The position numbers were made by a program, and so were the translations under genes. A DNA stretch of 32,000 nt. Source: Aliivibrio fischeri ES114 (GTDB taxonomy: Bacteria > Pseudomonadota > Gammaproteobacteria > Enterobacterales > Vibrionaceae). The stretch lies in NCBI RefSeq assembly GCF_000011805.1, contig NC_006841.2, one strand, 5' to 3'. The notes beneath the pieces are model-generated. The model was not told where the DNA came from. It saw only the letters and a program-made list of their open reading frames with translations, and made no database searches. Of this stretch, positions 529 to 24,669 are shown one piece after another (position 1 is the first letter of the stretch; each line of letters starts with the position of its first letter).

Positions 529-1227
529 TTACCATAATTTAAAGGTATCCCAATTACTTAACGCTTCAATACTTGAATCAATTGGAGGTGCTAAAAAAGC
601 TAAAATCACCGTAGCAATTACGAATATTGCAGATAGCGATAAGTTTGAAAAATCAGTCAGTTTTAATGCTGAACCAAATGAGCGTTTAATACGAACATTG
701 GCCAAATCAACACTGTATATTTCGTCTAATAGAAGATGAATGACACCACCACAGAATACAAAAATGCCGGATAACCAAGCAAATAGATCCGCATTTTTAA
801 ATTTGTCATTGATAATAAAAGCGGTTGTGTTTGTGGTTAGTAAGCCGCAAAAGAGCAAAAATAACAATGAATGACATATGCCTCTATGAATCGTTTGCCA
901 CTCGAATACGTTTCGGATCCCATATTTTATAATTAGGTGTATTACAACAGGTAAACCAATTAAAAGCATAAATTGCCTTTCATTAATGGCATCACTCGTA
1001 AAGTAGCGAATACTGAGTAAAACAATACACACAGTAAAAAGATTAAAAATAATATCGAGAGAGGTGGAATTGTCTGAGTCAATATCAGGCAGCAGGCCAC
1101 CAATGGTACCTAAAAACCAAAGCCATAATGCCGTATCAAGATCGATATGGTTAGCGGAAAGAAGTGCTGCAGAGGCGGCACCAGATGTTAATGCGGCGAC
1201 ATTTAAATGTGTGCTGAAATTTGCCAT
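529..1227 (-). CDS. Membrane-bound metal-dependent hydrolase, DUF457/YdjM-like
   Basis: 232-aa polytopic membrane protein carrying the family motifs LLPDIDS, HRGICHSLL and HLLLDE, which parallel LLPDIDH / HRGFTHSLL / HILAD of E. coli YdjM as I recall it. Confidence 0.65.
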   Translation of the reverse strand: MANFSTHLNVAALTSGAASAALLSANHIDLDTALWLWFLGTIGGLLPDIDSDNSTSLDIIFNLFTVCIVLLSIRYFTSDAINERQFMLLIGLPVVIHLIIKYGIRNVFEWQTIHRGICHSLLFLLFCGLLTTNTTAFIINDKFKNADLFAWLSGIFVFCGGVIHLLLDEIYSVDLANVRIKRSFGSALKLTDFSNLSLSAIFVIATVILAFLAPPIDSSIEALSNWDTFKLW

Positions 1228-1283
1228 AGGTTTTCTAAGAATTCTTTTGTAATATGAAGGCTGATTAATTGAGATAAGAAATT

Positions 1284-1454
1284 ATGTTTAAAATATTTGC
1301 ATTACTGTTCATTGCGTTAGGTATCTATATCGGAATGAATTACGGCGATGAAGTTCAAAGTGTTATGGATTCAGATGCCTTTGAGCAAGTACAAGATACT
1401 TTGGTTGATGGAAAAGATCTTGTGATTGAAAAAATTGAAGATGCTGTTCAGTAA
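1284..1454 (+). CDS. Small (56 aa) membrane protein, not in the ORF track (below its length cut-off)
   Basis: ATG at 1284, TAA at 1452-1454. Translation: MFKIFALLFIALGIYIGMNYGDEVQSVMDSDAFEQVQDTLVDGKDLVIEKIEDAVQ. It has one N-terminal hydrophobic helix and an acidic tail. A strong terminator follows at 1481-1519. The RBS is weak (gagataagaa). Confidence 0.45.
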   Translation: MFKIFALLFIALGIYIGMNYGDEVQSVMDSDAFEQVQDTLVDGKDLVIEKIEDAVQ

Positions 1455-1480
1455 TAGTTAGCATGTTCGATGGATAAAAT

Positions 1481-1519
1481 AAAAATCCCCCTTGATAGCA
1501 ATATCGTGGGGGATTTTTG
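1481..1519 (+). terminator. Rho-independent terminator
   Basis: aaaaatccccc (1481-1491) pairs with gggggattttt (1508-1518), so a T-run follows the G/C stem core. Confidence 0.75.
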
Positions 1520-1550
1520 ATTCTATACAAACGAACCATGAAAACAAGAG

Positions 1551-1582
1551 AATAACTGTTTTTATATACAGTTATTTTCTGT
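1551..1582. terminator. AT-rich hairpin, possible terminator of the yiaD-like gene
   Basis: aataactgt (1551-1559) pairs with acagttatt (1568-1576). T-rich tracts lie on both sides, and it is 40 nt downstream of the minus-strand stop at 1620. The stem is weak (only 2 G:C pairs). Confidence 0.35.
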
Positions 1583-1619
1583 TTTGGTTAAATTCATGGC
1601 TAACGATGCGTGAATTAAC

Positions 1620-2288
1620 TTATTTAAGCGGTAAAATTGTGATTTCTACACGGCGGTTACAAGCACGGCCTTGTTTTGTAGAGTTATCACAAACTGGGTA
1701 ACGAGCACCGTAACCACGAGCATTAACTCGACCAGCGGCAACGTCTTGCTTAATTAGGTAGGTACGCACTGAATCAGCACGTTGCTCTGATAGTGTTTGG
1801 TTTTTAGTTGCATTACCAGAACTGTCAGTATGACCGTCAATTTGAAGAGCTGTATCTGGGTATTCAACAAGGATACGTGCAACACCGTTTAATGTGTTGT
1901 AGATACTAGCATCTAATTGGTATGAGCTAGATTGGAAGCCAATACCGTTGTCCATTACTAGTTTAAGTTCGTTTTTGCCTACACGTTCAACTTGAACACC
2001 AGAGCTCTTAAGCTCATTACGTAGTGCTTTTTCTTGTTGGTCGAAGTAGTAACCAACACCACCACCCACAGCACCACCTGCAGCAGCACCAATTAATGCG
2101 TTTTTACGACGCTCTTTTGCGTTATCACCTGTTGCAAGACCAATTGCAACACCTGCAAGTGCACCAGCAAGAACGCCTTTAGTTGCTGAGTTTGTTTCAG
2201 ACTCACCAGTTGTTGCGTTTTGGCGTTGAGTTGCCTGACAGCCAGTTAATGAAATAAGTAATGCAAGCGCAATTGTGATTTTTTTCAT
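1620..2288 (-). CDS. yiaD: OmpA-family outer-membrane lipoprotein with glycine-zipper region (YiaD-like)
   Basis: Lipobox LISLTGC at the N-terminus. Gly-zipper segments GVLAGALAGVAIGLATG and ALIGAAAGGAVGGGVGYYFD. C-terminal OmpA domain DGHTDSSG...SEQRADSV...NRRVEITILP. Confidence 0.8.
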   Translation of the reverse strand: MKKITIALALLISLTGCQATQRQNATTGESETNSATKGVLAGALAGVAIGLATGDNAKERRKNALIGAAAGGAVGGGVGYYFDQQEKALRNELKSSGVQVERVGKNELKLVMDNGIGFQSSSYQLDASIYNTLNGVARILVEYPDTALQIDGHTDSSGNATKNQTLSEQRADSVRTYLIKQDVAAGRVNARGYGARYPVCDNSTKQGRACNRRVEITILPLK

Positions 2289-2400
2289 GTTTTTCTCTAG
2301 TTATGTACATCTGTGGCGCGCAGTTTACTCCTAGATGATCAAAAATCAATGCTTTATATGAAAGGTTATTGACAAAAATACTGATAATAACGTGATAAGT

Positions 2401-2431
2401 GTCACCTTAAATCCAACAGAATTAAGGTGAC
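2401..2431 (-). terminator. Hairpin downstream of the five-gene operon
   Basis: gtcaccttaa (2401-2410) pairs with ttaaggtgac (2422-2431), 9 nt beyond the stop at 2440. There is no clean U-tract on the minus strand. Confidence 0.4.
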
Positions 2432-2439
2432 TGTTAGTA

Positions 2440-3000
2440 TTATTGATCTGCAACTAGAAGCACACTTAATTGATGCTGAGCGGGGTTATAAGAGATCACT
2501 TCACCATTTGGTGTATCAAATGAATAGATAGCATTACCCGTATTTACAGGCGTGCTACTCCATATGTATCCAGCGAGATCACCGACATCGTAGTTAAAAG
2601 CCGAGCCAAACGCTTTTGTATTCATAGCTGGGCTATTACATGCCGCTTCTTTTAAAGATATTAGTTCTTTTATATTTGGCATTCGCCATTTATCAATACC
2701 TGCAAATTTATGTAATCGGTGATTTCCGTTTTCATCATTGATGGAGGCGATCATCGTCAATGCACTTTGCCAAAAGTAGGTTTGAGTTGCACCACGACAC
2801 TCTTTATTTGTGCTATTCCATTGCTTGCCTAATGGGCATCGCATCCAAGTTAATCCGGTTAGGTTATCAATCACAATACCGCTATCTAGGTTGATATAGC
2901 GGTTGTTAGCTGCTGTTCTCGGTAGGTTAGCATTGCATTCTTGGGCAACAACTGTAATTGAAAAAAATGAAATAAATGCGATAAAAAAGATATTTTTCAT
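2440..3000 (-). CDS. Secreted DUF1566 (Lcl C-terminal domain family) protein
   Basis: Signal peptide MKNIFFIAFISFFSITVVAQ. Family hallmarks DNLTGLTWMRC ... W..A ... DKWRMPNIKELISL. Only a 2-nt gap to the upstream gene. Confidence 0.75.
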   Translation of the reverse strand: MKNIFFIAFISFFSITVVAQECNANLPRTAANNRYINLDSGIVIDNLTGLTWMRCPLGKQWNSTNKECRGATQTYFWQSALTMIASINDENGNHRLHKFAGIDKWRMPNIKELISLKEAACNSPAMNTKAFGSAFNYDVGDLAGYIWSSTPVNTGNAIYSFDTPNGEVISYNPAQHQLSVLLVADQ

Positions 3001-3002
3001 GA

Positions 3003-4505
3003 CTAATTGCCTTGTGCTGAAACTAAACGAGCTGGGAACAAATAAGAAGGATCATTTTCGTATTCGGTATTTTTAAATTTTGGTGGTGTTTTACTGGTGT
3101 AAACTTCCACAGTGCTTACACTGCCTTTATTCTCACCTAATAGGTTAATGGTATTAAAGCTTAAAGCACCATCGTTGTTGTAAGGGGTGTATGTACCGTA
3201 GGTCATTGTTTGATGCCATACTCCACCTTCTTCAATGTCAGAGCTACCTATAGGCTGATTAGGAAAGAAATAATGACTTAATCCGTATGTTGCTGAGCTC
3301 GAGTTTGTTTGACGTTCACCAAAATCGATGAGATTGTAGATTTCATGAAATCTTGGTAGTCGCCAATCACTTTTTCCGCATAATTGAATCGAATTAATGT
3401 AGTTAACGTAATCTTTCGTTGTACAAATCTCATCTCCTGCTGTTTTACAAGTTGCAAGAGCCTCATCTTTAGAGAAAGGCGTGACGTCTGCTAGTTCTAA
3501 AGCAAGTTGGCGATTTTTAAATTGAATAGATGACTCATTGGCTGATTTTATCTCCCAAATTAGCCCACTTCGCTCATCAAGAACGCAGCGCCATCGTGAC
3601 GCTGAGTCACCAAGTTTATTTCCGTTCATGTCTAATTTTGTGAATTTAAATCCATTATTTTGTTTTGGATTTCGTTCGATTTTATCAAAACCAAAATCAG
3701 CATCTTGCCCAGGAAAACTTAAAGGGGATGTTTCGACATTATGTTCACTATTTTCATCGGTAAAATAGAGAACAGTTCCAGTGTCGTTTAATGGACTGCC
3801 GCTTAGTGAAATGGCATTTAATTCTTTGATAAAAGTTAATGATTGGGCTTCTGTTAATACAGATGTCACCATATCTACGGGATTATTAATGATATTTGCA
3901 CTTAACAAAGTTAATAATTGTGTTCTGTTTTGGCTTTTAGTGTGTTTCAACAGGGTAATTACATTTTGCTCTAATATAGCCAGATCTGGATCTTGCAAAT
4001 TATCAAGAAGATTTCCACGTAAAGAAATTCCTTTTTCTGATAGTTGTGTGGTAATTATTTCTATCGCTTTTTTAGCTGTCATTCCATTATTTATGTGACC
4101 AGCGATTAATGACGTGATGCCATTGATTTTATTTCCAGTGGATTTTTGTAATCCTGGAGCCACAATATAGGCATTATTAGTCGATGCCGCTATCGCATTG
4201 TCTGCATATGAGTTTACAGATTGAAAGGCGCTTGGTGTTTCTGCTAATAGTGGTAGCGTTACAATATTTTTATTGGTATCTGTAATTGAAAACTTACCTT
4301 GTGCATCTGCTTTTGACGTCGGTTCATTTGCATCACACATTAAATTTTGGTTGATATCAACGCACACCTTACTATTTGGTGCAATGTGTTGAGTTGCGAT
4401 TGTGCCTGAGAGTGTATAACTCGGAACTGAAGTGTCAGGAGAATCTGAGCCTCCACATCCTGTAAGTGCCAAAGTGGTGGCTAAAAGAGTTAATTGATAT
4501 TTCAT
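3003..4505 (-). CDS. Lipoprotein with C-terminal DUF1566 domain (500 aa)
   Basis: I place the start at ATG 4505, giving MKYQLTLLATTLALTGCGGS with lipobox LTGC. The track's upstream extension to 4724 overlaps the preceding gene. The C-terminus has SGLIWEIK ... SDWRLPRFHEIYNLIDF (DUF1566 pattern). Confidence 0.75.
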   Translation of the reverse strand: MKYQLTLLATTLALTGCGGSDSPDTSVPSYTLSGTIATQHIAPNSKVCVDINQNLMCDANEPTSKADAQGKFSITDTNKNIVTLPLLAETPSAFQSVNSYADNAIAASTNNAYIVAPGLQKSTGNKINGITSLIAGHINNGMTAKKAIEIITTQLSEKGISLRGNLLDNLQDPDLAILEQNVITLLKHTKSQNRTQLLTLLSANIINNPVDMVTSVLTEAQSLTFIKELNAISLSGSPLNDTGTVLYFTDENSEHNVETSPLSFPGQDADFGFDKIERNPKQNNGFKFTKLDMNGNKLGDSASRWRCVLDERSGLIWEIKSANESSIQFKNRQLALELADVTPFSKDEALATCKTAGDEICTTKDYVNYINSIQLCGKSDWRLPRFHEIYNLIDFGERQTNSSSATYGLSHYFFPNQPIGSSDIEEGGVWHQTMTYGTYTPYNNDGALSFNTINLLGENKGSVSTVEVYTSKTPPKFKNTEYENDPSYLFPARLVSAQGN

Positions 4506-4533
4506 AGATAGATCTTCTTGTTGTGAGTTAAAA

Positions 4534-6813
4534 TTACAAAAGTAGGTATTGGCGACGTAGCCAAAAGATAAAAAGTAAAAATAAAGTGAATAACGAAATA
4601 CTACCGCCCGAGGTGGATGAACTCGCCGTTGTCGATGCTGTTTGAGACGAGCACTGATAAGAACGAATGTGTCCAACGCCCCATGACAGTAATTTTCCTG
4701 AATGATTAGGACTGAAATCGACAACCTCTAATCGCCATGTACCCCAACTCGATTCCCCTAAGAGTGGAGCAAGGATGTCATCGTGTTGAACGGTAAAATA
4801 GTCACGAAATGTTTTATTTTTTATTTGACGGTGATTGAGTAAATTGACTTTTGTTCCACGGGGTGAAATAAGAGAAATATTTAAATCAATGAAATTATCG
4901 TGTTCAATATTGAGATAAATACCAAAAGTATTATCCACGACACCGTCTCTATTTTTAGCAATAAAATTAATGGTTTGTATACCAGCGATAGGGCGACCAG
5001 AATTATCTGTTGTTGCATCAGGGAGACGAATGTTTAGAGGTTTAAACGGGTTAGAAAAAAGAGGTATCCCTTTTACTAGAGTCGTATTCTCAGACCATTC
5101 TTGCGATAATAAATTCGAGCTAAATTGATATTTAATATTGGTTTCTATATTAAATGACTCTCCACACACCAATCCAGTAGGGTAATCAATATTCATTTCC
5201 ATTTCTTTGAATGGAATGCTGACAATATGTTCAGCTAATTTATTATTAATGAATATGTCACCATCAATAGAAGCTGAGCGTTGCGTTGGTGATAGTATCC
5301 ATTGGATTAAACTGTTAGGAGCAATATAGCGGTGAGCGAATTCTTGCTTGAATGGTTCGAGTATAAGTCCATGCTGATTAAAATGTTTCGTTAAGATCTG
5401 TGCATAGATTTTGTTTGGATAAAGCTGATTAGCCACATACACCATGCTTTCTGCTAAATCGTGCATTTTTAAACCACGACCTAACCCATACATAGACTCT
5501 AAAACAATCGTGTCGAACTCAGTAAATGCATTTTCGCCATAAGTGCTAACACTTTGCTTTAAGGATTGAAATAAAGGGGTAGACCAAAGCTCATCTCCAA
5601 GTTCACCTGCGACGCTTTCGTGCGCACGATATTCAGAACTTTTAAAATAACGGGCTCTTTGGTTCCATAAACTACGAGTGGTATTTTTTGTGCCAAAATA
5701 ACCATCCCAGTTAAAAACAGTATCGATTTCAAATTCTTGACCAGAGCTATTCGCATCCGTGAATTGTTGTCTATAACTGTAACTTCCTGCCCAATAATCG
5801 CCAAAGCCTTCACCTATTGCGCCTGTGTGTCCATAAGCCCAATCAGGAACGATATGATAATGAATAGAATGGCCTAATTCATGTAAAAGAACATCAGCGT
5901 CAAGTGCATCTGGAGAACCACCACCTACGCCAAGCAGCAAGGCTTTAGGGCCGTAATAATAAGTTGAATTATCTGCGATTAATCCTCGAGCATCAAAATC
6001 AATAGGTGCGTTGAAAACAGAAAACCCGAGAGATTGAATGTATTTTGCAGACGCATTTAGATGCGCAAATGCCATCACCTGCGGAAAACGTTGATCATTG
6101 ATTCTTATAGATTTTAATTCTGCTAGAGATGAAAATTTCGCCACGCCTTCTTGAGGAAGAAAACCATTACTATCTTCTGTTCTGGTTGGGTTACTTGATG
6201 TTTTTGGTGTGATTAAACTAATCGCATCAATTTGACGTACTCTTGAATTACTTAAGAAATATTGTCCATTTGCTAATAACACTTCAGCGTTTTTTTTAAC
6301 GTATTGAGGTGGGTTAGGATATTGAGCCAAATCTGTCATTTGTGACGTAGGTTTTGGTGCTCGATCCATTGTTCGTAAATCAGGATCAAAGACCATGAGA
6401 TCTGCAGTGATTACGTTGCCACTGGCTACTGTTGGTGATGTCAGAGAGTTTAACGTTCGTGGTGCTTCAAGCTCTGAGGCCGTTGTTGGTTTACCATTAC
6501 GGATAATAGTATCTTGAAGGCTTTTAAAGACTCTAACAATATGGTTATTTTTATTTGTAGATAGAACAATCGTTTTTTGTTGTTGATATTCACCATCCAC
6601 CCATAGATCAAAGTTATAATGAGCACCAAGTTTAGAGTGCGTCACATAACGCAATTTATATTCACCATGGTTAGGGTAAGTCTGCTGTAAGTAGTTTTTG
6701 GCATCTTGAGCTTGAGATATGGTTATTAATTGATCTGGATAATCCCACTCACCAGCAAGGGTTTGAGTGGAAAACCATAATCCAAACATGAAGTAATAAA
6801 GGTACTTAATCAT
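4534..6813 (-). CDS. Secreted thermolysin-like zinc metalloprotease with proprotein-convertase P-domain and GlyGly-CTERM sorting signal
   Basis: Signal peptide. HELGH at aa 311-315 (nt 5869-5883), with GAIGEGFGD placing Glu335 20 residues after the second His, as in the thermolysin GAINEAISD motif. P-domain-like segment ...LNISLISPRGTKVNLL...WGTWRLEVVD...GKLLSW. C-terminus SSSTSGGSISLFTLFLLFIFWLRRQ. Confidence 0.8.
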   Translation of the reverse strand: MIKYLYYFMFGLWFSTQTLAGEWDYPDQLITISQAQDAKNYLQQTYPNHGEYKLRYVTHSKLGAHYNFDLWVDGEYQQQKTIVLSTNKNNHIVRVFKSLQDTIIRNGKPTTASELEAPRTLNSLTSPTVASGNVITADLMVFDPDLRTMDRAPKPTSQMTDLAQYPNPPQYVKKNAEVLLANGQYFLSNSRVRQIDAISLITPKTSSNPTRTEDSNGFLPQEGVAKFSSLAELKSIRINDQRFPQVMAFAHLNASAKYIQSLGFSVFNAPIDFDARGLIADNSTYYYGPKALLLGVGGGSPDALDADVLLHELGHSIHYHIVPDWAYGHTGAIGEGFGDYWAGSYSYRQQFTDANSSGQEFEIDTVFNWDGYFGTKNTTRSLWNQRARYFKSSEYRAHESVAGELGDELWSTPLFQSLKQSVSTYGENAFTEFDTIVLESMYGLGRGLKMHDLAESMVYVANQLYPNKIYAQILTKHFNQHGLILEPFKQEFAHRYIAPNSLIQWILSPTQRSASIDGDIFINNKLAEHIVSIPFKEMEMNIDYPTGLVCGESFNIETNIKYQFSSNLLSQEWSENTTLVKGIPLFSNPFKPLNIRLPDATTDNSGRPIAGIQTINFIAKNRDGVVDNTFGIYLNIEHDNFIDLNISLISPRGTKVNLLNHRQIKNKTFRDYFTVQHDDILAPLLGESSWGTWRLEVVDFSPNHSGKLLSWGVGHIRSYQCSSQTASTTASSSTSGGSISLFTLFLLFIFWLRRQYLLL

Positions 6814-6822
6814 TTTTATCTC

Positions 6823-8958
6823 TTAAAATACGTATTTAGCGTTTACAGTGAAATAACGTCCAGGTTCAGTGGAATAGCCTTTCGCTGAGTCCATAATTCC
6901 TGCAACATCTTGATAGCGGATGTATTCTTTATCGAATAGATTGATGATGTTTGCGCTGATATTAAAATCTGTGGTGACAGCGTAATTTACGCCAAGATCA
7001 ACCGTTGCCCAGCTTGATGTTGTCGCACATTCTGTTGCCATACCGATATTCGTTGCGCATTGTGGTACTCGATCCATTGAGGATGCCCAATTAAGAGAGC
7101 TGTAGGCTGACAGTTTTTCAAGATCGTAAGTAATACCAACATTTCCTTCTAATGGAGTGATGGTGCGAATGTATTCACCATCGCCATCTTTTCCGTCAAC
7201 ATAACCAATCTTTGAGTTTATTCCCCATTCTTGGGTGAATTGGTGTGCTAGGGTTAATTCAGCTCCATAAGTCTCGACACCACTGATGTTTTGGTATTGC
7301 TTTAAGTAATTCCCGGTAGATGGGTCCATTCCAACTTGTATAACATCGATAAAGTTTTCAAATTTTTGATAAAAAACAGCACCATAGATTTGAGTTTTAC
7401 CAGAATCATATTTAATACCGTGTTCGATAGAATCACTTGTCTCTGCTTCTAAATCCATATTAGGAATGATTAAGAATGGGGTCAGAGGAACAAAGTCATG
7501 GTTGTTATATCCGTATGCTTTATCATAAGCTGGAGCACGATAACCGTGGTTATAGGATAAATACGCGTTGAGTGTATCTGTAAATTGATAGGTCGCAGAA
7601 ACACTAGGAGATAGCTCACTGCTATTTATTTTTTTTACACTAAAACCAGCAATAGAGTCAGAATCGCTAGGGGTTAAGCTGTGCGCATCAAAACGAAGCC
7701 CTCCAGTGATAATCCAATTGTTAACTTCCACCATATCGCGCAAATAAATGCCAAGACTATATGCTCTTGCTGGTGCGAACGGTTGTGTGTGATTTACATT
7801 ATTACCGTTCCAATCAATAGTTGATTTGCTGTTTGGTCTCTCATATTGATTGCTTGTTAAACTTAGACCATAAGCAAGATTATGAACTTGGTTTAATAGA
7901 GTAGCAGAACTTATAAAATCGTTATCAAAACCAATTAATTGATCAGTAAAACTTTGAGCTTTTATTTCTCGGCGTTTTTCTACAATATTATTTCGCTCAC
8001 GCGACATTAATCTATTGATGTCTGAAGATGTTGTGGTATCTCTCCAGTAGAGTTTTGAATTTAATTTCTCAAAGAAAGCATCGTAAGGTGTATATTCAGC
8101 GCCAATATAAGCGTTGATATCTTGAGTATTTTCTTTGTGGTTATAGGTAGATATATGCCAGATACCATCTTTTTGAATAGATGCGGATCCTTCTTCACGT
8201 AACATATCTTCGGTGTAGTATTCAATTTTAGCGGTTAGCATTAGCTCTTCGCCAATGTAGTGATTTACTGTATATGCAGCGTTTACACCATCAACATTAC
8301 GGTTATATAGATCTTGTTGGTAGTTACGGGTTTCTTCACCTTGCCAGTAGGATAAATTAATTAGACTTTCAGTATTTCCAGAGCGAAACGCTAGGTTACT
8401 GCTACCTTTATATTTATTACTTATGCCTGTGTAAGTACCAGAAACATCAGAATAGAAATCGTTACCTTTTAAATAGTCTTCAGGTTGTTTCGTTTCAATA
8501 ATAACAACACCACCAATAGCGCCTGAACCATGAACTGAAGAGCTGGCACCTTTTACAACTTCAATTGATTTTACGTTTGATAGATCAAACGAATTACGGC
8601 CAACTTTGTCATTAATATCTGAAGCGCCGTAACCATCGGAAGATTTAATTCCGTCTTTTACAATAACAATACGATTCCCTGTCATTCCTCGAATTGTTAT
8701 ATTTTGCGGGCGACCAGCGCCACCAGTAACACTGACTCCTGCTTCTTTATTGAGAGAGTCGTATAATTCTGTTGTTCCTTTTGTTTCTAGGTCATCGCCA
8801 TTGATAACAGTAATAGACCCTGCAACTTTTGATAAGGGTTGTTCTACTTTGTTAGCTGTAACGACAACTTCATCAAATTGTGTAACCTCAGAATTAGCGT
8901 GTACGAAGTTGGCAGTCAGTACGCTAAGTACTGCCGCTGTTATTGGTGAAAGCTTCAT
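6823..8958 (-). CDS. TonB-dependent outer-membrane receptor
   Basis: Signal peptide, TonB box DEVVVTA, plug motifs ITIRGM / IVKDG / IEVVKGASSSVHGSGAIGGVV, and a beta-barrel ending in ...YFTVNAKYVF. GGAG RBS upstream. Confidence 0.9.
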   Translation of the reverse strand: MKLSPITAAVLSVLTANFVHANSEVTQFDEVVVTANKVEQPLSKVAGSITVINGDDLETKGTTELYDSLNKEAGVSVTGGAGRPQNITIRGMTGNRIVIVKDGIKSSDGYGASDINDKVGRNSFDLSNVKSIEVVKGASSSVHGSGAIGGVVIIETKQPEDYLKGNDFYSDVSGTYTGISNKYKGSSNLAFRSGNTESLINLSYWQGEETRNYQQDLYNRNVDGVNAAYTVNHYIGEELMLTAKIEYYTEDMLREEGSASIQKDGIWHISTYNHKENTQDINAYIGAEYTPYDAFFEKLNSKLYWRDTTTSSDINRLMSRERNNIVEKRREIKAQSFTDQLIGFDNDFISSATLLNQVHNLAYGLSLTSNQYERPNSKSTIDWNGNNVNHTQPFAPARAYSLGIYLRDMVEVNNWIITGGLRFDAHSLTPSDSDSIAGFSVKKINSSELSPSVSATYQFTDTLNAYLSYNHGYRAPAYDKAYGYNNHDFVPLTPFLIIPNMDLEAETSDSIEHGIKYDSGKTQIYGAVFYQKFENFIDVIQVGMDPSTGNYLKQYQNISGVETYGAELTLAHQFTQEWGINSKIGYVDGKDGDGEYIRTITPLEGNVGITYDLEKLSAYSSLNWASSMDRVPQCATNIGMATECATTSSWATVDLGVNYAVTTDFNISANIINLFDKEYIRYQDVAGIMDSAKGYSTEPGRYFTVNAKYVF

Positions 8959-8974
8959 TTGTAGCTCCGCTTTT

Positions 8975-10978
8975 TTAATTATTTATTAGAGATAAAAGAA
9001 AAATATATTCAAACGCTTGTTGTTTTAAAGCATCCCGTCTATTTGTTGAGTGTCCTTGATTAAAATGGGTTTCAAGTAAATAAGGACCTTTACCTGAACT
9101 GTTTCTTCTTATTTTGGTTAGGTATTTAGCGCCTTCCCAATAAGGCACTCGACTATCATTAAAACCAACTTGAACAAGAAGTGGGGGGTACTCTTGTTTA
9201 GAGATATTTAAATAAGGATCCGTTTTCTTCATGATATTTAATTCATCTTGAATTGTTGGATTTCCCCATTCACTATATTGTTGTAGTGTCAGTGGTAAAG
9301 AGCTATCAGACATACTATTAATGACATCGACAAAAGGTACATTGAGAGCTGCGCCTTGAAATAACTTTGGCTCTTGATTCAGTGCAGTTGCAATTAGAGT
9401 ACCGCCTGCACTTGACCCCAATGCGTAGATTTTTCGTTCCCCATTGCGATATAACTTCATCGATTTTGCTGCATTTATAAAATCAGTTGCGGCATTTTGA
9501 CGGTTTATCCCTCGACCTGCTTGATACCAATCTTCACCTTTGTAACCACCACCTCGAACATGAGCAATGGCATAAATTACTCCACGATCTAATAAGCTGA
9601 TTATTTGTGGCATGAAATAGGGTTTCATCGTGACGCCGTAAGCACCGTAACCGTATAAAAAAACAGGATTGGTATCGGTTAGCTTATCTTTCCTATAAGC
9701 AAGAGTTACCGGTAGTTCAATTCCATTATTTGTTACGATTATCTGTTCTGTTGCATACAAAGAAGCATCAATATTTGGATATTGATCTTCTAAGTACAGC
9801 GCTCTATTTAAGGTCGCAGTATTTACTTTTTCCCATTTTGGGCTTTGCACCATAGACATACTACGTAAGTAAAAGGTATCACTATTAAAATCACCAACAC
9901 GACTGATCCAAGCAACTTGGCCAGAGGTGGATAAAGAGGTTCTTAGTCTGATTTCTCCAGCAGTATTTAGATAAATTAACTGCGAGCTTTTATTATCGTT
10001 AACAGAAACAACGGGACCTGATTTAAATAAATAAAAGTCTGTAATTCTTTTGTTTTTCTGTGGTCGATAAAGTGGTAACCAATTGTTTATAATTGATATA
10101 TGTGCAATGTTTGCTGAATATAATATAAACAGGTTGTGTTCATGATTGCTATTTATTATGGCTTTGTTTTTAGCAATATCTGCGTAATATTCAACACCTT
10201 CTTGTCGAGTCTTTATTGGTAAAGAGAGATGTGTACTTGTTAAGTTTAAAATTCTTTGTTCAGTGCTATTGCTGTTATTAGATTGTACCATCGCATATTG
10301 ATGATCACTTGAAAGATAAAAAGACAGTAGCCATTCTTTATCTTTTTCAGTGAAAAGAGACGTTATGTTTTGTTGCTGTGTATCAAACTGAATTAATTCA
10401 AAAGGTCGTAATGAATATTTTTCTTGTTTGATAAGGTACACATAACGGTCATCTTTAGACCAAGTAACAGTAGGCTCAACGTGATGTGTTAACGTTGTTA
10501 TCGATTGTGTTCTTAAATCAACAATACTGGCTTGGTATTGTTCAGTTCCTGTCAAATCTTCGGTAATGACGAGTTTATTATGATCATTACTTAAATCCCA
10601 GCCACCAAGGTGATAGTAATCGAATTGATTCGCTCGGTTAGAGATATTGAATAATACAGTGATCTTTTTTGTTTTTAATGAACGCGAAAGTATTTGGCGC
10701 AGACCATTATATTGAGTCACTGTGTATTCTGAATCACCAATTATTTTCCACGGAGACTCCGATTTTATTGGTTGGTTATGTTGCCACTCTTCGACCAATG
10801 CATCCGTTTTAGGCTTAACTTTTGTTTTGAATTCATAAGTTAATTTATTTTCATTATTTAAATACTTTAAAACCTCAGGATTAGATCGTGAACTATCTTT
10901 TAGCCAATTCAAATTATCTTGAGCGAAAGTTAAAGAAGAAAATAGAACTAAGCAGTAAAGAACATTAAGAAATTTCAT
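8975..10978 (-). CDS. Exported S9A prolyl-oligopeptidase-family serine peptidase (oligopeptidase B / protease II-like)
   Basis: PtrB-like N-terminus DNLNWLKDSSRSNPEVLKYLNNENKLT. Catalytic triad context GSSAGG, NDSRVPYWEG, QGHS. I prefer ATG 10978, which gives the signal peptide MKFLNVLYCLVLFSSLTFAQ. The track starts at GTG 11014. Confidence 0.85.
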   Translation of the reverse strand: MKFLNVLYCLVLFSSLTFAQDNLNWLKDSSRSNPEVLKYLNNENKLTYEFKTKVKPKTDALVEEWQHNQPIKSESPWKIIGDSEYTVTQYNGLRQILSRSLKTKKITVLFNISNRANQFDYYHLGGWDLSNDHNKLVITEDLTGTEQYQASIVDLRTQSITTLTHHVEPTVTWSKDDRYVYLIKQEKYSLRPFELIQFDTQQQNITSLFTEKDKEWLLSFYLSSDHQYAMVQSNNSNSTEQRILNLTSTHLSLPIKTRQEGVEYYADIAKNKAIINSNHEHNLFILYSANIAHISIINNWLPLYRPQKNKRITDFYLFKSGPVVSVNDNKSSQLIYLNTAGEIRLRTSLSTSGQVAWISRVGDFNSDTFYLRSMSMVQSPKWEKVNTATLNRALYLEDQYPNIDASLYATEQIIVTNNGIELPVTLAYRKDKLTDTNPVFLYGYGAYGVTMKPYFMPQIISLLDRGVIYAIAHVRGGGYKGEDWYQAGRGINRQNAATDFINAAKSMKLYRNGERKIYALGSSAGGTLIATALNQEPKLFQGAALNVPFVDVINSMSDSSLPLTLQQYSEWGNPTIQDELNIMKKTDPYLNISKQEYPPLLVQVGFNDSRVPYWEGAKYLTKIRRNSSGKGPYLLETHFNQGHSTNRRDALKQQAFEYIFLLSLINN

Positions 10979-11040
10979 AAGTACAGCAAATCCATGAGTC
11001 AATTTAATTAACACGGCGAATGCTACACATTAATACGAAT

Positions 11041-11059
11041 GAGATCAATTATCATTTTC
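11041..11059. promoter_or_regulatory. Candidate Fur box upstream of the peptidase/TonB-receptor operon
   Basis: gagatcaattatcattttc matches the 19-bp consensus GATAATGATAATCATTATC at 13/19 positions by hand alignment. On the other strand it contains AATGATAAT. It lies 27-63 nt upstream of the possible starts. Confidence 0.35.
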
Positions 11060-11182
11060 ATTTCTTTTTATTGTTATTGTGATGACCATCTTGTTATTAG
11101 CGTGGGAATTGACGTTGTTTTACACTTGATTTGTAGATTTTTAATGATTTTTGGACTAAGGCTTAACTTCAAGAGGAGGGAA

Positions 11183-11210
11183 GCATACAGTTATGACTTA
11201 AACTGTATGC
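11183..11210 (-). terminator. Hairpin downstream of ohrR
   Basis: gcatacagtt (11183-11192) pairs with aactgtatgc (11201-11210), 8 nt past the stop at 11218. On the minus strand it is followed by a pyrimidine-rich tract (ttccctcctctt). Confidence 0.4.
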
Positions 11211-11217
11211 ATTAATA

Positions 11218-11685
11218 TTATTTTTCTAGATTTGCTAATAGCTTTTCACAGGTCGCTTTTAATTGTTGCAGTTCTTCAAGTTGTAATTGGCTTTTACAAA
11301 AAATACCGTTAGGTACAGATAGGGCTTTGTTTTTTAGTTCAATACCTTGTTTTGTAAGGAAAACCAAACGGATGCGTTCGTCTTCTTTGCTGCGCTCCCT
11401 TGTGACTATCCCTTTTGATTCTAATCGCTTAAGTAAAGGGGTTAGGGTGCCAGAGTCAAGGTGTAGATCATGTCCTAGATCTTTTACATTAATGCCATTT
11501 TTTTCCCAAATAACCATCATTGCGAGATATTGAGGATAGGTAAGATCCAATGTATTGAGTAATGGACGATAGGCTCTGATCATGGCATTAGATGCGCTGT
11601 ATAAAGAGAAACATACTTGATTCTTAAGTAATAATTGAGGGGAATCAATATTATTTTTATCTTGTGTTTTGTTTTGTTTTTCCAT
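11218..11685 (-). CDS. ohrR: MarR-family organic-hydroperoxide sensor/repressor OhrR
   Basis: Winged-helix MarR core LTYPQYLAMMVIWEKNGINVKDLGHDLHLDSGTLTPLLKRLESKGIVTR and the N-terminal sensing Cys in NQVCFSLY. The gene is divergent from ohr. I place the start at ATG 11685 (AAGAGG RBS); the track's 11736 start would bury the operator palindrome in coding sequence. Confidence 0.85.
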   Translation of the reverse strand: MEKQNKTQDKNNIDSPQLLLKNQVCFSLYSASNAMIRAYRPLLNTLDLTYPQYLAMMVIWEKNGINVKDLGHDLHLDSGTLTPLLKRLESKGIVTRERSKEDERIRLVFLTKQGIELKNKALSVPNGIFCKSQLQLEELQQLKATCEKLLANLEK

Positions 11686-11706
11686 TGATGCCTCTTTAAA
11701 TAAAAA

Positions 11707-11782
11707 TAGATTGTGCACAATATACTTGTATTTCATTTAAGAATCGACATATACTGAAGGAAATTAAGTTGCACACAATCTA
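11707..11782. promoter_or_regulatory. ohrR-ohr divergent control region with two inverted copies of a TAGATTGTG-type operator
   Basis: Site 1 (11707-11723), tagattgtgcacaatat, contains the perfect 12-bp palindrome ATTGTGCACAAT (11710-11721). Site 2 (11766-11782) reads tagattgtgtgcaactt on the other strand. Confidence 0.5.
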
Positions 11783-11835
11783 ATTACTGACAATTTTTAT
11801 AGATTAAATAGAATTTAGAATAAAGGGGCACCATC

Positions 11836-12258
11836 ATGACAACATTGTATACAACAAAAGCAACGGCTTTGGCTGGACGTAATGGTCAAGTAAAAACAGA
11901 TGATAATATGCTTGATCTCGCATTAAGTTATCCAAAAGAAATGGGTGGTACAGGGGAAGCAACGAACCCTGAGCAGTTGTTTGCAGCAGGTTATTCAGCG
12001 TGTTTTTCAAATGCGATTCTTCATGTGGCTCGTGAAATGAAAATTAAGTTAACTCAAGCTCCTGTGACTGCTGAAGTTGGTATAGGCCCAAATAGTGCGG
12101 GTGGTTTTGCTTTAACGGTTGTGCTTGCTGTTGTACTTGATTTAGAAGATCAACAAGCACAGCAATTAGTAAAAACAGCGCATCAAGTTTGTCCATATTC
12201 GAATGCGGTTAAAGGGAATATTGATGTAAAACTCTCTGTAAATGGCGTAGCTCTTTAA
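11836..12258 (+). CDS. ohr: Organic hydroperoxide resistance protein Ohr (OsmC/Ohr family peroxiredoxin)
   Basis: 140 aa with both catalytic Cys contexts, GYSACFSNA and HQVCPYSNA. AAGGGG RBS. Divergent from ohrR. Confidence 0.9.
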   Translation: MTTLYTTKATALAGRNGQVKTDDNMLDLALSYPKEMGGTGEATNPEQLFAAGYSACFSNAILHVAREMKIKLTQAPVTAEVGIGPNSAGGFALTVVLAVVLDLEDQQAQQLVKTAHQVCPYSNAVKGNIDVKLSVNGVAL

Positions 12259-12276
12259 CTCGTAAGGAATGATTAA

Positions 12277-12672
12277 ATGAACACGTTATTATTGACGGCA
12301 GGGCGTGTACTTCTTGCTTTGTACTTTTTGATCCCAGGTATCATGAAGTTTGTATCTTGGGATATGCACATCCAGTTGATGGAAAAGCATGAGATGCCGT
12401 TTGTGCCTGTTTTGCTAGGGCTCGCTGGTGTTTTCCAGATTGGTGCCGCGATTTTATTGATTGCAAATCGCTTTACGTGGATCGTTGCTTTGTTATTAGC
12501 TGGCTTAGTACTTGTGATTAATGTCTCTTTACATGATTTCTGGAATTATTCAGGGATGGAAGGCGCGCATGAAATGCAAAATTTCATTAAAAACTTAGGC
12601 ATTTTTGCTGGTTTACTCGTGCTTTCAGGTCACTCTATGCCTGAGTGTTGCAAGACAAAAAAGAAGTCATAA
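12277..12672 (+). CDS. DoxX-family inner-membrane protein
   Basis: 131 aa with four hydrophobic helices and a DoxX-like N-terminus GRVLLALYFLIPGIMKF. It lies 18 nt downstream of ohr, so is probably co-transcribed. Confidence 0.75.
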   Translation: MNTLLLTAGRVLLALYFLIPGIMKFVSWDMHIQLMEKHEMPFVPVLLGLAGVFQIGAAILLIANRFTWIVALLLAGLVLVINVSLHDFWNYSGMEGAHEMQNFIKNLGIFAGLLVLSGHSMPECCKTKKKS

Positions 12673-12753: not shown

Positions 12754-15141
<2,388 letters not shown>

Positions 15142-16621: not shown

Positions 16622-18140
<1,519 letters not shown>

Positions 18141-21618: not shown

Positions 21619-21623
21619 TATAT

Positions 21624-23054: not shown

Positions 23055-23076
23055 AACAAAAGGCGCATAAATGAAA

Positions 23077-23107
23077 AAAGATCCGAGAATATTATTCACG
23101 GATCTTT
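23077..23107 (-). terminator. Rho-independent terminator of permease copy 1 (may also stop the convergent EAL gene)
   Basis: aaagatccg (23077-23085) pairs with cggatcttt (23099-23107). On the minus strand the hairpin is followed by TTTTTTCATTT. Confidence 0.7.

Positions 23108-23124: not shown

Positions 23125-24669
<1,545 letters not shown>

What the first reader, a model, noticed from the sequence alone, without database searches (positions are those of the whole stretch)
2440..11059. All-exported five-gene operon: S9 peptidase, TonB-dependent receptor, GlyGly-CTERM metalloprotease and two DUF1566 proteins
Five co-directional genes are separated by only 16, 9, 28 and 2 nt (8975/8958, 6823/6813, 4534/4505, 3003/3000). 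A hairpin follows the last gene and a candidate Fur box precedes the first, so this looks like one transcription unit. Every product carries an export signal: signal peptides on the S9 peptidase, receptor, metalloprotease and small DUF1566 protein, and a lipobox on the 500-aa DUF1566 protein. The logic resembles a polysaccharide-utilisation locus (secreted degradative enzymes, a surface or periplasmic binding lipoprotein, and a dedicated TonB-gated channel) applied to a proteinaceous or protein-bound substrate. I know of no characterised system with this gene set, and DUF1566 has no established biochemical role.
Basis: partly seen in the sequence, partly recalled or inferred. Interest (0 to 1): 0.75.

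Follow-up and report, generated by a model that had tools for sequence, protein, structure and literature searches.

The report
Iron-regulated haem-receptor operon (ptrB–hutR type)
This five-gene cluster in Aliivibrio fischeri is the counterpart of a haem-uptake operon already described in Vibrio cholerae and V. vulnificus and switched on by iron starvation, so it is not a new system, although what four of its five proteins do has never been tested.

Summary
Five co-directional minus-strand genes have gaps of 16, 9, 28 and 2 nt. All five products carry export signals. A Fur box sits upstream and a hairpin downstream.

The claim that no characterised system has this gene set does not hold. The window is Aliivibrio fischeri ES114 chromosome II, genes VF_A0333 to VF_A0329. 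The same five genes, in the same order, form the V. vulnificus hvtA operon. That operon was shown by RT-PCR to be one transcript and to be Fur- and iron-regulated (PMC6813434). They also form the V. cholerae ptrB-hutR locus, where HutR (VCA0064) is a haem receptor and VCA0065 is an extracellular GlyGly-CTERM metalloprotease.

I found the five-gene order in 51 loci from other species. A four-gene core (receptor, metalloprotease and two DUF1566 proteins) occurs in Shewanella, Psychrobium and Pseudoalteromonas. In three of those loci it lies beside a CobN/HmuS-like gene. The Fur box is conserved about 79 nt upstream of the first gene.

What remains open is the role of the accessory proteins:
- a signal-peptide-bearing S9 peptidase that lacks oligopeptidase B's P1-defining Glu576;
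- a thermolysin-fold protease;
- a lipoprotein and a small protein with C-type-lectin-like Lcl_C domains.

My inference is protease-assisted capture of protein-bound haem, by analogy with gingipain–HmuY–HmuR. Interest is modest.

The parts
11183..11210 (-). Hairpin after the upstream gene ohrR (11218-11736). It marks the upstream boundary of the unit.
   Evidence: Terminator-like site with 10 pairs. ohrR matches the NF052638 equivalog at 235 bits, above the 200 cut-off.
11048..11077 (-). Sigma-70-like promoter candidate (ATAACA, 18 nt spacer, GATAAT). Its -10 hexamer overlaps the Fur box.
   Evidence: Consensus scan, 9 of 12 positions matched. This is a pattern match only.
11041..11059 (-). 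Fur box GAAAATGATAATTGATCTC
   Evidence: Matches the consensus at 14 of 19 positions. The core AATGATAATTGAT is conserved about 79 nt upstream of the first gene's ATG in more than 30 species with different upstream genes. It nearly matches the V. vulnificus hvtA-operon Fur box gtaaatgataattgatgt.
8975..10978 (-). VF_A0333: exported S9A serine peptidase, annotated 'protease II/PtrB'. It is oligopeptidase-B-like but has Gln in place of the P1-defining Glu576.
   Evidence: Pfam S9_N plus S9. Scores 298 bits against Serratia oligopeptidase B (7ywp), with the catalytic triad aligned (GSSAGG, DSRV, GHS) and LTLQQYSEWGNP aligned to LTTGEYDEWGNP. Signal peptides and Gln576 are conserved in most orthologues. 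The NCBIfam oligopeptidase B equivalog scores 328 bits, below the 1313 cut-off.
6823..8958 (-). VF_A0332: TonB-dependent haem receptor, orthologue of HutR (V. cholerae) and HvtA (V. vulnificus)
   Evidence: TIGR01785 at 417.7 bits, above the 316.85 cut-off. It is 55-56% identical over its full length to the V. cholerae and V. vulnificus genes. It carries YRAP...His487...PNMDL (the FRAP/His/NPNL motifs) and a C-terminal Phe.
4534..6813 (-). VF_A0331: thermolysin-fold (M4/M36-like) zinc metalloprotease with a P-domain and a GlyGly-CTERM sorting signal. Orthologue of V. cholerae VCA0065.
   Evidence: H311, E312, H315 and E335 are invariant. The AlphaFold2 model has pLDDT 90 and pTM 0.86. Foldseek matches thermolysin, vibriolysin, aureolysin, LasB and M36 enzymes at probability 1.0, and the P-domain matches furin and the Aeromonas sobria serine protease. 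TIGR03501 GlyGly-CTERM is above its cut-off. It is 43% identical to the V. cholerae protein.
3003..4505 (-). VF_A0330: 500-aa lipoprotein. Lipobox Cys17, then a transthyretin/CarboxypepD_reg-like beta-sandwich, a family-specific helical domain and a C-terminal Lcl_C (DUF1566) domain.
   Evidence: Lcl_C at 42.7 bits, above the 34.9 cut-off. Cys17 and the LxGC lipobox are invariant in 35 orthologues. AlphaFold2 model pLDDT 78. Relatives of the N-terminal domain carry CarboxypepD_reg.
2440..3000 (-). VF_A0329: 186-aa exported single-domain Lcl_C (DUF1566) protein with four invariant Cys
   Evidence: Lcl_C at 92.4 bits. The alignment of 22 orthologues shows invariant C22, C55, C68 and C121 and a signal-peptide cleavage site at VVA|QEC.
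2401..2431 (-). Hairpin 9 nt after the stop codon of the last gene. Probable 3' end of the transcript.
   Evidence: dG -16.3 kcal/mol, z = -3.86, and none of 200 shuffles folds as well. There is no U-tract, so it is not a canonical intrinsic terminator.

Best explanation
This is the Aliivibrio fischeri ES114 copy (VF_A0333 to VF_A0329) of the Fur-repressed ptrB-hutR/hvtA operon of Vibrionaceae.

Proposed mechanism. When iron is scarce, Fur leaves the box that overlaps the -10 region and the five genes are transcribed as one mRNA. The second product is a TonB-dependent outer-membrane receptor that imports haem.

Shown experimentally in orthologues (V. vulnificus, V. cholerae, V. parahaemolyticus), not in A. 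fischeri:
- co-transcription of the five genes;
- Fur and iron control;
- haem uptake by the receptor;
- the metalloprotease is extracellular and depends on rhombosortase.

Inferred here: the four accessory proteins form a capture-and-release front end for protein-bound haem.
- The thermolysin-fold protease is exported, processed at its GlyGly-CTERM and held at or released from the cell surface. There it degrades haemoproteins or their carriers.
- The outer-membrane lipoprotein and the small exported protein each present a C-type-lectin-like Lcl_C domain. They bind the substrate, or a glycan on it, near the receptor.
- The signal-peptide-bearing S9 oligopeptidase has lost oligopeptidase B's P1-determining Glu576. 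It trims oligopeptides in the periplasm.

Confidence by layer: about 0.95 that this is the hutR/hvtA-type iron-regulated haem-receptor operon, and about 0.4 for the accessory-protein mechanism.
For: Identity of the locus:
- All five proteins are exact matches to A. fischeri ES114 records.

Synteny:
- V. cholerae (L001) and V. vulnificus (L002) have the same five genes, with the same sizes and overlapping or abutting junctions but different flanking genes.
- 51 of 81 loci anchored on the metalloprotease have all five genes in order. Five have the four-gene core without the peptidase.

Literature on orthologues:
- RT-PCR co-transcription of ptrB-hvtA-VV2_1550-2 and Fur/iron dependence (PMC6813434).
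- HvtA is a minor haem receptor (PMC8706444).
- HutA and HutR are the high-affinity haem transporters of V. cholerae (PMC12607845), and hutR is VCA0064.
- VCA0065 is found in culture supernatant and is 5.4-fold lower in the rssP mutant (PMC6219818; PMC12889589).
- In V. parahaemolyticus all five genes sit among iron-acquisition genes in an RNA-seq table (values 20.7, 11.9, 5.1, 3.6, 2.8) (PMC12341060).

- TIGR01785 above its cut-off, and FRAP/His/NPNL motifs present.
- Fur box conserved at about -79. Fur-like boxes (up to 16/19) also lie upstream of the receptor in the four-gene loci.
- In Shewanella and Pseudoalteromonas the core sits next to a CobN/HmuS-like protein plus MotA/ExbB-like and DUF2149 genes. 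These resemble P. gingivalis hmuS/T/U.
- Thermolysin fold with an intact HEXXH+E motif.
- Lcl_C is a C-type-lectin-like ligand-binding domain (PMC11162425).
Against: - Nothing has been tested in A. fischeri. No paper in the library mentions VF_A0329 to VF_A0333.
- No experiment anywhere links the peptidase, the metalloprotease or the DUF1566 proteins to haem use. The V. vulnificus authors state that their functions are unknown.
- HvtA and HutR support growth on free hemin without any stated need for the accessory genes.
- VCA0065 is also reported as RpoH-regulated.
- The Lcl proteins have no recognisable haem-binding motif and no invariant His or Met ligand.
- The Lcl500 model found no significant structural neighbour.
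- The downstream hairpin lacks a U-tract.
Confidence: 0.8

Rival explanations
1. The accessory genes ride on the same iron-starvation transcript but serve a different purpose: host or particle colonisation. The metalloprotease would degrade mucus or matrix, and the Lcl_C proteins would act as adhesins for sulphated glycans. Low iron would simply be the cue for being on a host.
For: Lcl of Legionella binds sulphated glycosaminoglycans through its DUF1566-containing domain. Leptospira DUF1566 proteins are annotated as adhesins, and NF047850 Lsa25 gives a weak hit. Free hemin uptake by HutR/HvtA has been described without reference to the accessory genes.
Against: The receptor, metalloprotease and both Lcl genes stay together in every gammaproteobacterial locus examined (61 loci with the ordered core plus 2 short partial contigs). 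This holds even where the peptidase is lost and the flanks differ. In Shewanella and Pseudoalteromonas the core sits beside HmuS/T/U-like haem-processing genes. Such strict linkage to one receptor is not expected for a general adhesin.
Confidence: 0.2
2. The transported ligand is a haem-peptide or another protein-derived metalloporphyrin fragment rather than free haem. The surface protease generates haem-peptides, the receptor imports them, and the periplasmic S9 oligopeptidase strips the peptide.
For: S9A oligopeptidases accept only short peptides (established knowledge of the family). This one is exported and has a remodelled S1 site, with Glu576 replaced by Gln, in most operon-linked orthologues. 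It is the first gene and has the largest value in the V. parahaemolyticus RNA-seq table.
Against: HutR and HvtA orthologues support growth on free hemin. The peptidase is dispensable for the core in Shewanella, Psychrobium and Pseudoalteromonas. There is no direct evidence for haem-peptide transport.
Confidence: 0.1
3. One reading: a previously uncharacterised, PUL-like protein-utilisation system for nitrogen or peptide nutrition, with no known homologous locus.
For: Two peptidases, a lipoprotein whose domain layout resembles surface glycan-binding proteins (lipid anchor, beta-sandwich spacer, C-terminal binding domain), and a TonB-gated channel.
Against: A homologous operon is published and iron-regulated. 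The receptor belongs to the haem subfamily. The SusC signature is below its cut-off (24.5 versus 46.2) and there is no SusD. Fur boxes are conserved.
Confidence: 0.05
4. The five genes are not one transcription unit in A. fischeri; internal promoters drive the downstream genes separately.
For: A 28-nt gap precedes gene 4. Weak promoter-like matches occur inside the genes, although there are fewer of them than in shuffled sequence.
Against: The gaps are 2-28 nt. In V. cholerae the junctions overlap by 1-4 nt. RT-PCR spans all junctions in V. vulnificus. The V. parahaemolyticus RNA-seq values decline monotonically along the operon, as expected from polarity.
Confidence: 0.05

Closest known systems
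V. vulnificus hvtA operon (ptrB/VV2_1548, hvtA, VV2_1550 to VV2_1552) and the V. cholerae ptrB-hutR locus (VCA0063 to VCA0067)
   Same: The same five genes in the same order, with similar sizes. Identities are 43-46%, 54-56%, 43-48%, 35-36% and 46-49%. The Fur box is nearly identical and in the same position. The receptor has the same FRAP/His/NPNL features.
   Different: The flanking genes differ: ohrR and a yiaD-like lipoprotein gene here, a DEAD-box helicase and a chemoreceptor gene there. There are no experimental data for the A. fischeri copy.
Porphyromonas gingivalis gingipain / HmuY / HmuR (hmuYRSTUV) haem acquisition
   Same: The functional logic matches: surface-attached proteases free haem from host proteins, a lipoprotein hands it to a TonB-dependent receptor, and the system is expressed under haem or iron limitation. 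In Shewanella and Pseudoalteromonas the core module even sits beside a CobN/HmuS-like gene with MotA/ExbB-like neighbours.
   Different: None of the accessory proteins is homologous. The protease here has a thermolysin fold and is not a C25 cysteine protease. Sorting is by GlyGly-CTERM and rhombosortase, not by the type IX secretion system. The lipoprotein carries Lcl_C and is not an HmuY-fold protein. No haem binding has been shown.
Oligopeptidase B (PtrB/OpdB, EC 3.4.21.83)
   Same: S9A fold and the Ser-Asp-His triad. Scores 298 bits against Serratia oligopeptidase B over the whole length.
   Different: It has an N-terminal signal peptide. Glu576 is replaced by Gln and residue 578 by Ser. 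It scores far below the NCBIfam equivalog cut-off. Cleavage after basic residues therefore should not be assumed.
Legionella Lcl C-terminal domain (DUF1566/PF07603)
   Same: Pfam Lcl_C is above its cut-off in both downstream proteins. The domain is exported and has a C-type-lectin-like binding fold according to PMC11162425.
   Different: There is no collagen-like stalk. Conserved disulfide cysteines are present here, whereas Lcl-CTD has none. Trimerisation and glycosaminoglycan binding are untested.
Bacteroidota polysaccharide-utilisation loci (SusC/SusD plus SGBP plus enzymes)
   Same: The general layout: secreted enzymes, a surface lipoprotein with a spacer beta-sandwich and a C-terminal binding domain, and a TonB-gated channel.
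   Different: There is no SusD. The receptor is haem-type and not SusC-type. Regulation is by Fur. The host is a gammaproteobacterium.

Membership tests
ptrB-hutR/hvtA haem-receptor operon of Vibrionaceae | Five genes in the order S9 peptidase, TonB receptor, P-domain metalloprotease, ~480-500-aa DUF1566 lipoprotein, 186-aa DUF1566 protein | tested here: met
   tblastn and gene tables for the V. cholerae and V. vulnificus loci and 49 further loci
ptrB-hutR/hvtA haem-receptor operon of Vibrionaceae | The receptor belongs to the haem/haemoglobin TonB receptor subfamily, with FRAP and NPNL boxes and the intervening conserved His | tested here: met
   TIGR01785 at 417.7 bits, above 316.85. YRAP, invariant His487 and PNMDL align to HutR and HvtA. 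The boxes are degenerate, as the literature notes for Vibrio receptors.
ptrB-hutR/hvtA haem-receptor operon of Vibrionaceae | Fur box in the promoter upstream of the peptidase gene | tested here: met
   11041-11059, 14 of 19 positions. Conserved at about -79 across more than 30 species. Matches the published V. vulnificus box.
ptrB-hutR/hvtA haem-receptor operon of Vibrionaceae | Co-transcription, iron/Fur-dependent expression and TonB-dependent haem uptake | not testable with these tools
   Shown only for orthologues
Oligopeptidase B (S9A, EC 3.4.21.83) | Ser-Asp-His triad in an S9 catalytic domain behind a beta-propeller | tested here: met
   Pfam S9_N plus S9. GSSAGG, DSRV and GHS align to the Serratia oligopeptidase B triad.
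Oligopeptidase B (S9A, EC 3.4.21.83) | The acidic pair Glu576/Glu578 that sets specificity for basic P1/P2 residues | tested here: not met
   Gln and Ser at the aligned positions. Gln576 is present in most operon-linked orthologues. The role of Glu576 is described in PMC3778648.
Oligopeptidase B (S9A, EC 3.4.21.83) | Scores above the NCBIfam equivalog cut-off (NF007511) | tested here: not met
   328.4 bits against a cut-off of 1313
Thermolysin-like zinc metallopeptidases (clan MA(E): M4, M36) | An HEXXH motif plus a downstream Glu as third zinc ligand, and the thermolysin fold | tested here: met
   H311, E312, H315 and E335 are invariant in 65 sequences. Foldseek gives probability 1.0 and target-normalised TM-scores of 0.56-0.70 to M4 enzymes and 0.48-0.50 to M36.
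Thermolysin-like zinc metallopeptidases (clan MA(E): M4, M36) | Membership of Pfam Peptidase_M4 or Peptidase_M36 at the curated threshold | tested here: not met
   The window protein gives no hit at E <= 0.1. Ten of 14 relatives hit M36 weakly (best 4e-5) and 7 of 14 hit M4 weakly. This is a separate, divergent family.
GlyGly-CTERM / rhombosortase substrates | A C-terminal Gly/Ser-rich motif, then a hydrophobic helix, then basic residues | tested here: met
   TIGR03501 at 23.4 bits, above 15.5. The SGGS motif, helix and RR are conserved across the family.
GlyGly-CTERM / rhombosortase substrates | Rhombosortase and a type II secretion system in the same genome, and processing by rhombosortase | not tested
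   These lie outside the window. The V. cholerae orthologue VCA0065 is 5.4-fold lower in the supernatant of an rssP mutant.
Lcl_C / DUF1566 (PF07603) | Pfam model matched above the gathering score | tested here: met
   42.7 and 92.4 bits against a cut-off of 34.9
Lcl_C / DUF1566 (PF07603) | Trimeric head that binds sulphated glycans, as in Legionella Lcl | not testable with these tools
   No multimer modelling or binding assay was available. No significant PDB neighbour was found for the model.
Sus-like polysaccharide-utilisation locus | An adjacent SusC-type receptor and SusD-type lipoprotein pair | tested here: not met
   The SusC/RagA signature scores 24.5 bits, below 46.2. No SusD-family hit appears in any product.

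The most novel reading that the evidence does not exclude
The conserved core (haem receptor, GlyGly-CTERM thermolysin-fold protease, DUF1566 lipoprotein, small DUF1566 protein) may be an unrecognised protease-dependent system in marine Gammaproteobacteria for taking haem from host proteins. In it, C-type-lectin-like DUF1566 proteins would act as a new class of haemoprotein- or haem-binding co-receptors or haemophores. The exported S9 peptidase, with its re-specified S1 site, would process the imported or released peptide fragments. This would give DUF1566 its first defined role outside adhesion.
Probability: 0.25. Interest if true: 0.6.

Novelty: new member of a known kind. Interest (0 to 1): 0.3.

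Why it matters
The operon and its receptor are established biology, so the locus itself is not a discovery.

The useful part is the gap it exposes. Four proteins have been co-transcribed with a haem receptor in several well-studied Vibrio pathogens and in the squid symbiont for over twenty years of literature, yet none has an assigned function.

The comparative data gathered here sharpen that question into testable form:
- The receptor, metalloprotease and two DUF1566 proteins form an inseparable core across at least eleven genera.
- Fur boxes travel with the core.
- In Shewanella and Pseudoalteromonas the core lies next to HmuS-like haem-processing genes.
- The so-called PtrB is an exported enzyme that lacks oligopeptidase B's specificity-determining glutamate.

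If the accessory proteins do free and capture protein-bound haem, this would explain why vibrios keep a 'minor' second haem receptor. It would also assign a role to DUF1566 in this context.

Tried and rejected
- Sequence searches of both DUF1566 proteins against PDB chains found nothing meaningful. The best hits were TodX and Arl2 at E > 0.02.
- Foldseek of the Lcl500 model against the PDB and the viral BFVD library gave no match with E <= 0.001. Only weak hits to generic beta-sandwiches appeared. The C-type-lectin-like fold of the Lcl_C domain therefore rests on the Pfam match and the Legionella paper, not on my own structural comparison.
- A search of 1.84 billion representative proteins with the N-terminal 261 residues of the lipoprotein showed that the complete module exists only in orthologues. 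Only the first beta-sandwich is widespread, as a CarboxypepD_reg-like repeat. This gave no functional lead.
- A literature search for the A. fischeri locus tags found nothing. The Vibrio iron-transport review I tried by PMC id is not held. Mey & Payne 2001 could only be cited second-hand through PMC6813434.
- I considered whether the Fur box was a chance match. On score alone it could be, since 8 hits (5 distinct loci) in the window score at least 14/19. Its conservation in position and sequence across species argues otherwise.
- I rejected the 679-aa GTG start for gene 1 and the 573-aa TTG start for gene 4 in favour of the annotated and conserved ATG starts.
- I rejected a PUL classification because there is no SusD and the SusC signature is below its cut-off.

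Full report
**Observation**

The gaps between them are 16, 9, 28 and 2 nt.

Profile searches confirm the domain calls:
- Gene 1 has Peptidase_S9_N plus Peptidase_S9.
- Gene 2 has Plug plus a TonB-dependent barrel.
- Gene 3 has a P_proprotein domain plus a GlyGly-CTERM, on a protein with an HELGH motif.
- Genes 4 and 5 each have Lcl_C (the current Pfam name of DUF1566).

All five N-termini read as Sec signal peptides. The 500-aa protein has a lipobox (LALTG|C), and its Cys17 is invariant in 35 orthologues.

A stable hairpin lies 9 nt after the last stop codon, at 2401-2431 (dG -16.3 kcal/mol, z = -3.9). It has no U-tract.

Upstream, the preceding gene ohrR ends in its own hairpin at 11183-11210. 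A Fur-box-like 19-mer at 11041-11059 overlaps the -10 hexamer of the only promoter-like match in the intergenic region.

Two details need correcting. Gene 1 most likely starts at ATG 10978 (667 aa), and gene 4 at ATG 4505 (500 aa). Both agree with the public records and with the orthologues.

**Where the window comes from**

All five proteins are exact matches to Aliivibrio fischeri ES114 records. The gene 3 and gene 4 records carry the tags VF_A0331 and VF_A0330, and consecutive accessions place the unit at VF_A0333 (annotated 'protease II') to VF_A0329.

**The receptor is a haem receptor and the operon is already described**

The TonB receptor scores 417.7 bits on TIGR01785 (TonB-dependent haem/haemoglobin receptor), above the 316.85 cut-off.

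A full-text search then found that V. vulnificus has a five-gene operon, ptrB (VV2_1548), hvtA and VV2_1550 to VV2_1552. RT-PCR showed it to be co-transcribed. It is induced by iron limitation and deregulated in a fur mutant. Its proposed Fur box, gtaaatgataattgatgt, nearly matches the one in this window. The authors equate it with the V. cholerae hutR operon of Mey & Payne 2001, and they state that the last three genes are of unknown function (PMC6813434).

Further literature points:
- HvtA is a minor and HupA the major haem receptor of V. vulnificus (PMC8706444).
- HutA and HutR are the high-affinity haem transporters of V. cholerae (PMC12607845).
- hutR is VCA0064 (PMC6855506).
- The next gene, VCA0065, is one of six GlyGly-CTERM proteins of V. 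cholerae. It is called a putative zinc metalloprotease. It is detected in culture supernatants and is 5.4-fold less abundant in a rhombosortase mutant (PMC6219818; PMC12889589).
- In V. parahaemolyticus RNA-seq, all five genes (S9 peptidase, haem-type receptor, P-domain protein and two DUF1566 proteins) sit among iron-acquisition genes the authors assign largely to the Fur regulon. Their values are 20.7, 11.9, 5.1, 3.6 and 2.8, a decline that is consistent with polarity (PMC12341060).

**Orthology and synteny, tested directly**

The metalloprotease has full-length relatives across Vibrio, Moritella, Photobacterium, Shewanella, Aeromonas and others.

The V. cholerae and V. vulnificus contigs that encode them show the same five genes with matching sizes and abutting or overlapping junctions. 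Their flanking genes differ from those in the window.

I scanned one genome per species with a profile of the metalloprotease, which returned 79 loci. tblastn with the five window proteins, run against these 79 loci plus the V. cholerae and V. vulnificus loci, gave the following:
- 51 loci have all five genes in the same order. They come from Vibrio, Aliivibrio, Photobacterium, Salinivibrio, Moritella, Psychromonas, Agarivorans and Ferrimonas.
- 5 loci have receptor, metalloprotease and both DUF1566 genes but no peptidase, although there is room upstream. These are three Shewanella, one Psychrobium and one Pseudoalteromonas.
- 5 further loci have at least four genes but are cut by contig ends.
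- 2 are short partial contigs.
- 18 loci have the metalloprotease homologue alone. Most are from Bdellovibrionota, Oligoflexia and other distant phyla, at about 30% identity; two are Gammaproteobacteria (Pleionea, Moritella sp. JT01).

The evolutionary unit is therefore the four-gene core, with the peptidase as a frequent fifth member.

**Regulatory signal**

On score alone the Fur box is not remarkable. It matches 14 of 19 positions, and 8 hits (5 distinct loci) reach that score in this AT-rich window.

Conservation makes the case. The core AATGATAATTGAT(C/A)TC is found about 72-80 nt upstream of the peptidase ATG in more than 30 species whose upstream genes differ. Fur-like boxes of up to 16/19 also lie upstream of the receptor gene in the four-gene loci. 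Iron control therefore travels with the module.

**The accessory proteins**

(a) The 'PtrB'. It aligns end to end with Serratia oligopeptidase B (298 bits) and has the Ser, Asp and His of the triad in place. Three things set it apart:
- It has a signal peptide where oligopeptidase B has a cytoplasmic N-terminus.
- At the position of Glu576 it has Gln. Glu576 defines P1 specificity for basic residues (PMC3778648). At position 578 it has Ser.
- It scores 328 bits against an equivalog cut-off of 1313.

The signal peptide is present in nearly all of the 49 operon-linked orthologues, and Gln576 in most of them; a group of Photobacterium loci keeps Glu576. It is therefore an exported S9A oligopeptidase whose specificity should not be assumed to be trypsin-like.

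(b) The metalloprotease.
- H311, E312, H315 and E335 are invariant in 65 sequences.
- The AlphaFold2 model is confident (pLDDT 90, pTM 0.86).
- Its catalytic domain matches thermolysin, vibriolysin, aureolysin, LasB, ProA and fungal M36 enzymes at probability 1.0. The C-terminal domain matches the P-domains of furin, Kex2 and the Aeromonas sobria serine protease.
- Pfam M36 and M4 models hit relatives only weakly, and do not hit the window protein at all. This is a separate family within the thermolysin clan.
- The GlyGly-CTERM is above its cut-off and conserved.

(c) The 500-aa lipoprotein. The model (pLDDT 78) shows four parts:
- a lipid-anchored N-terminus;
- a beta-sandwich (residues 30-127) whose relatives carry CarboxypepD_reg/transthyretin-like domains;
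- a helical domain (129-234) found only in orthologues;
- a C-terminal Lcl_C domain.

(d) The 186-aa protein. It is a signal peptide plus a single Lcl_C domain with four invariant cysteines.

The only solved DUF1566-containing domain, Legionella Lcl-CTD, is described as C-type-lectin-like and binds sulphated glycosaminoglycans (PMC11162425). My own structural searches with the lipoprotein model found no significant neighbour.

**An independent contextual clue**

In two Shewanella loci and the Pseudoalteromonas locus, the four-gene core lies beside three genes:
- a ~1300-aa CobN/Mg-chelatase-family protein (over 1000 bits);
- a MotA/ExbB-like protein;
- a DUF2149 protein (found only in the Pseudoalteromonas locus, the one scanned for it).

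This trio resembles hmuS, hmuT and hmuU of the Porphyromonas gingivalis hmuYRSTUV haem operon, where HmuS is a putative haem dechelatase (PMC12094164). It ties the core module to tetrapyrrole handling in lineages far from Vibrio.

**Most likely mechanism**

The following steps are shown in orthologues. Fur represses the unit. Iron limitation gives one five-gene transcript. The receptor takes up haem in a TonB-dependent way. The metalloprotease leaves the cell in a rhombosortase-dependent manner.

The following steps are my inference. The surface-tethered or released thermolysin-fold protease attacks haemoproteins or haem carriers. The lipoprotein and the small Lcl_C protein hold the substrate, or a glycan on it, at the outer membrane next to the receptor. 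The exported S9 oligopeptidase clears or trims oligopeptides in the periplasm.

The nearest functional analogue is the gingipain, HmuY and HmuR system of P. gingivalis. None of the accessory proteins is homologous to its counterpart there.

I put about 0.95 on the operon identity and about 0.4 on the accessory mechanism. The main rival, at about 0.2, is that the accessory proteins are iron-cued colonisation factors (protease plus lectin-like adhesins) unrelated to haem. Their strict linkage to this one receptor, and to HmuS-like genes, argues against that.

**Novelty and verdict**

The finding is real, but it is not a new system. It is the A. fischeri member of a published, iron-regulated haem-receptor operon.

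The residual value is threefold:
- the still-unknown role of four conserved accessory genes;
- the definition of the four-gene core and its Fur and HmuS-like associations;
- the point that 'PtrB' is an exported enzyme lacking oligopeptidase B's specificity determinant.

Interest is 0.3.

Noticed in passing
window 18000-23100, flanked by 16622-18046 and 23125-24555: A low-GC island (26-31% GC against about 38% elsewhere, with strong positive GC skew) encodes two tandem paralogous GGDEF proteins (443 and 442 aa) and a CSS-motif EAL protein (476 aa). Two paralogous amino-acid permease genes on the opposite strand bracket it. It looks like an acquired c-di-GMP module inserted between duplicated permease genes.
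   Followed up: partly
L060, L066 (Shewanella) about 1224-6130; L067 (Pseudoalteromonas) 1184-5957: A CobN/Mg-chelatase-family protein of about 1300 aa and a MotA/ExbB-like gene (plus a DUF2149 gene in L067) sit directly beside the four-gene core. They resemble P. gingivalis hmuS/T/U, which are linked to putative haem dechelation.
   Followed up: partly
window 9226-9261 (residues 573-584 of the S9 peptidase); orthologues in L001-L057: The operon-linked 'protease II' has Gln in place of the P1-defining Glu576 of oligopeptidase B, and a variable small residue at 578. A Photobacterium subgroup keeps Glu576. The database name 'protease II/PtrB' probably overstates what is known about its specificity.
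   Followed up: yes
window 11218-12672: A divergent ohrR / ohr pair (organic hydroperoxide regulator and reductase, both above the Vibrio equivalog cut-offs), followed by a DoxX-family membrane protein, lies immediately upstream of the operon. This flank is not shared with V. cholerae or V. vulnificus.
   Followed up: no
window 14958-14982 and 23245-23263: Two other Fur-box-like sequences (15/19) occur. One lies inside the 5' end of the long ORF of a YgjK-like glucosidase (12754-15132). The other lies inside the 3' end of the second permease gene (23125-24555, minus strand). Their conservation was not examined, so they may be chance matches in AT-rich DNA.
   Followed up: no
L038, L055, L059: Short metagenome-assembled contigs labelled Patescibacteria and Campylobacteraceae carry this operon in gammaproteobacterial gene order. 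L038 is 57% identical in the metalloprotease. These are probably mis-binned contigs rather than real occurrences in those phyla.
   Followed up: no
window 3003-4724 and 8975-11014: The mechanical ORF list extends gene 4 to a TTG start, giving 573 aa that overlap the end of gene 3, and gene 1 to a GTG start, giving 679 aa. The conserved and annotated starts are ATG 4505 and ATG 10978.
   Followed up: yes
cluster members of window 2440-3000: Some public records name the 186-aa DUF1566 protein 'HutR like protein'. The name seems to have spread from the neighbouring receptor gene and does not reflect homology to HutR.
   Followed up: no
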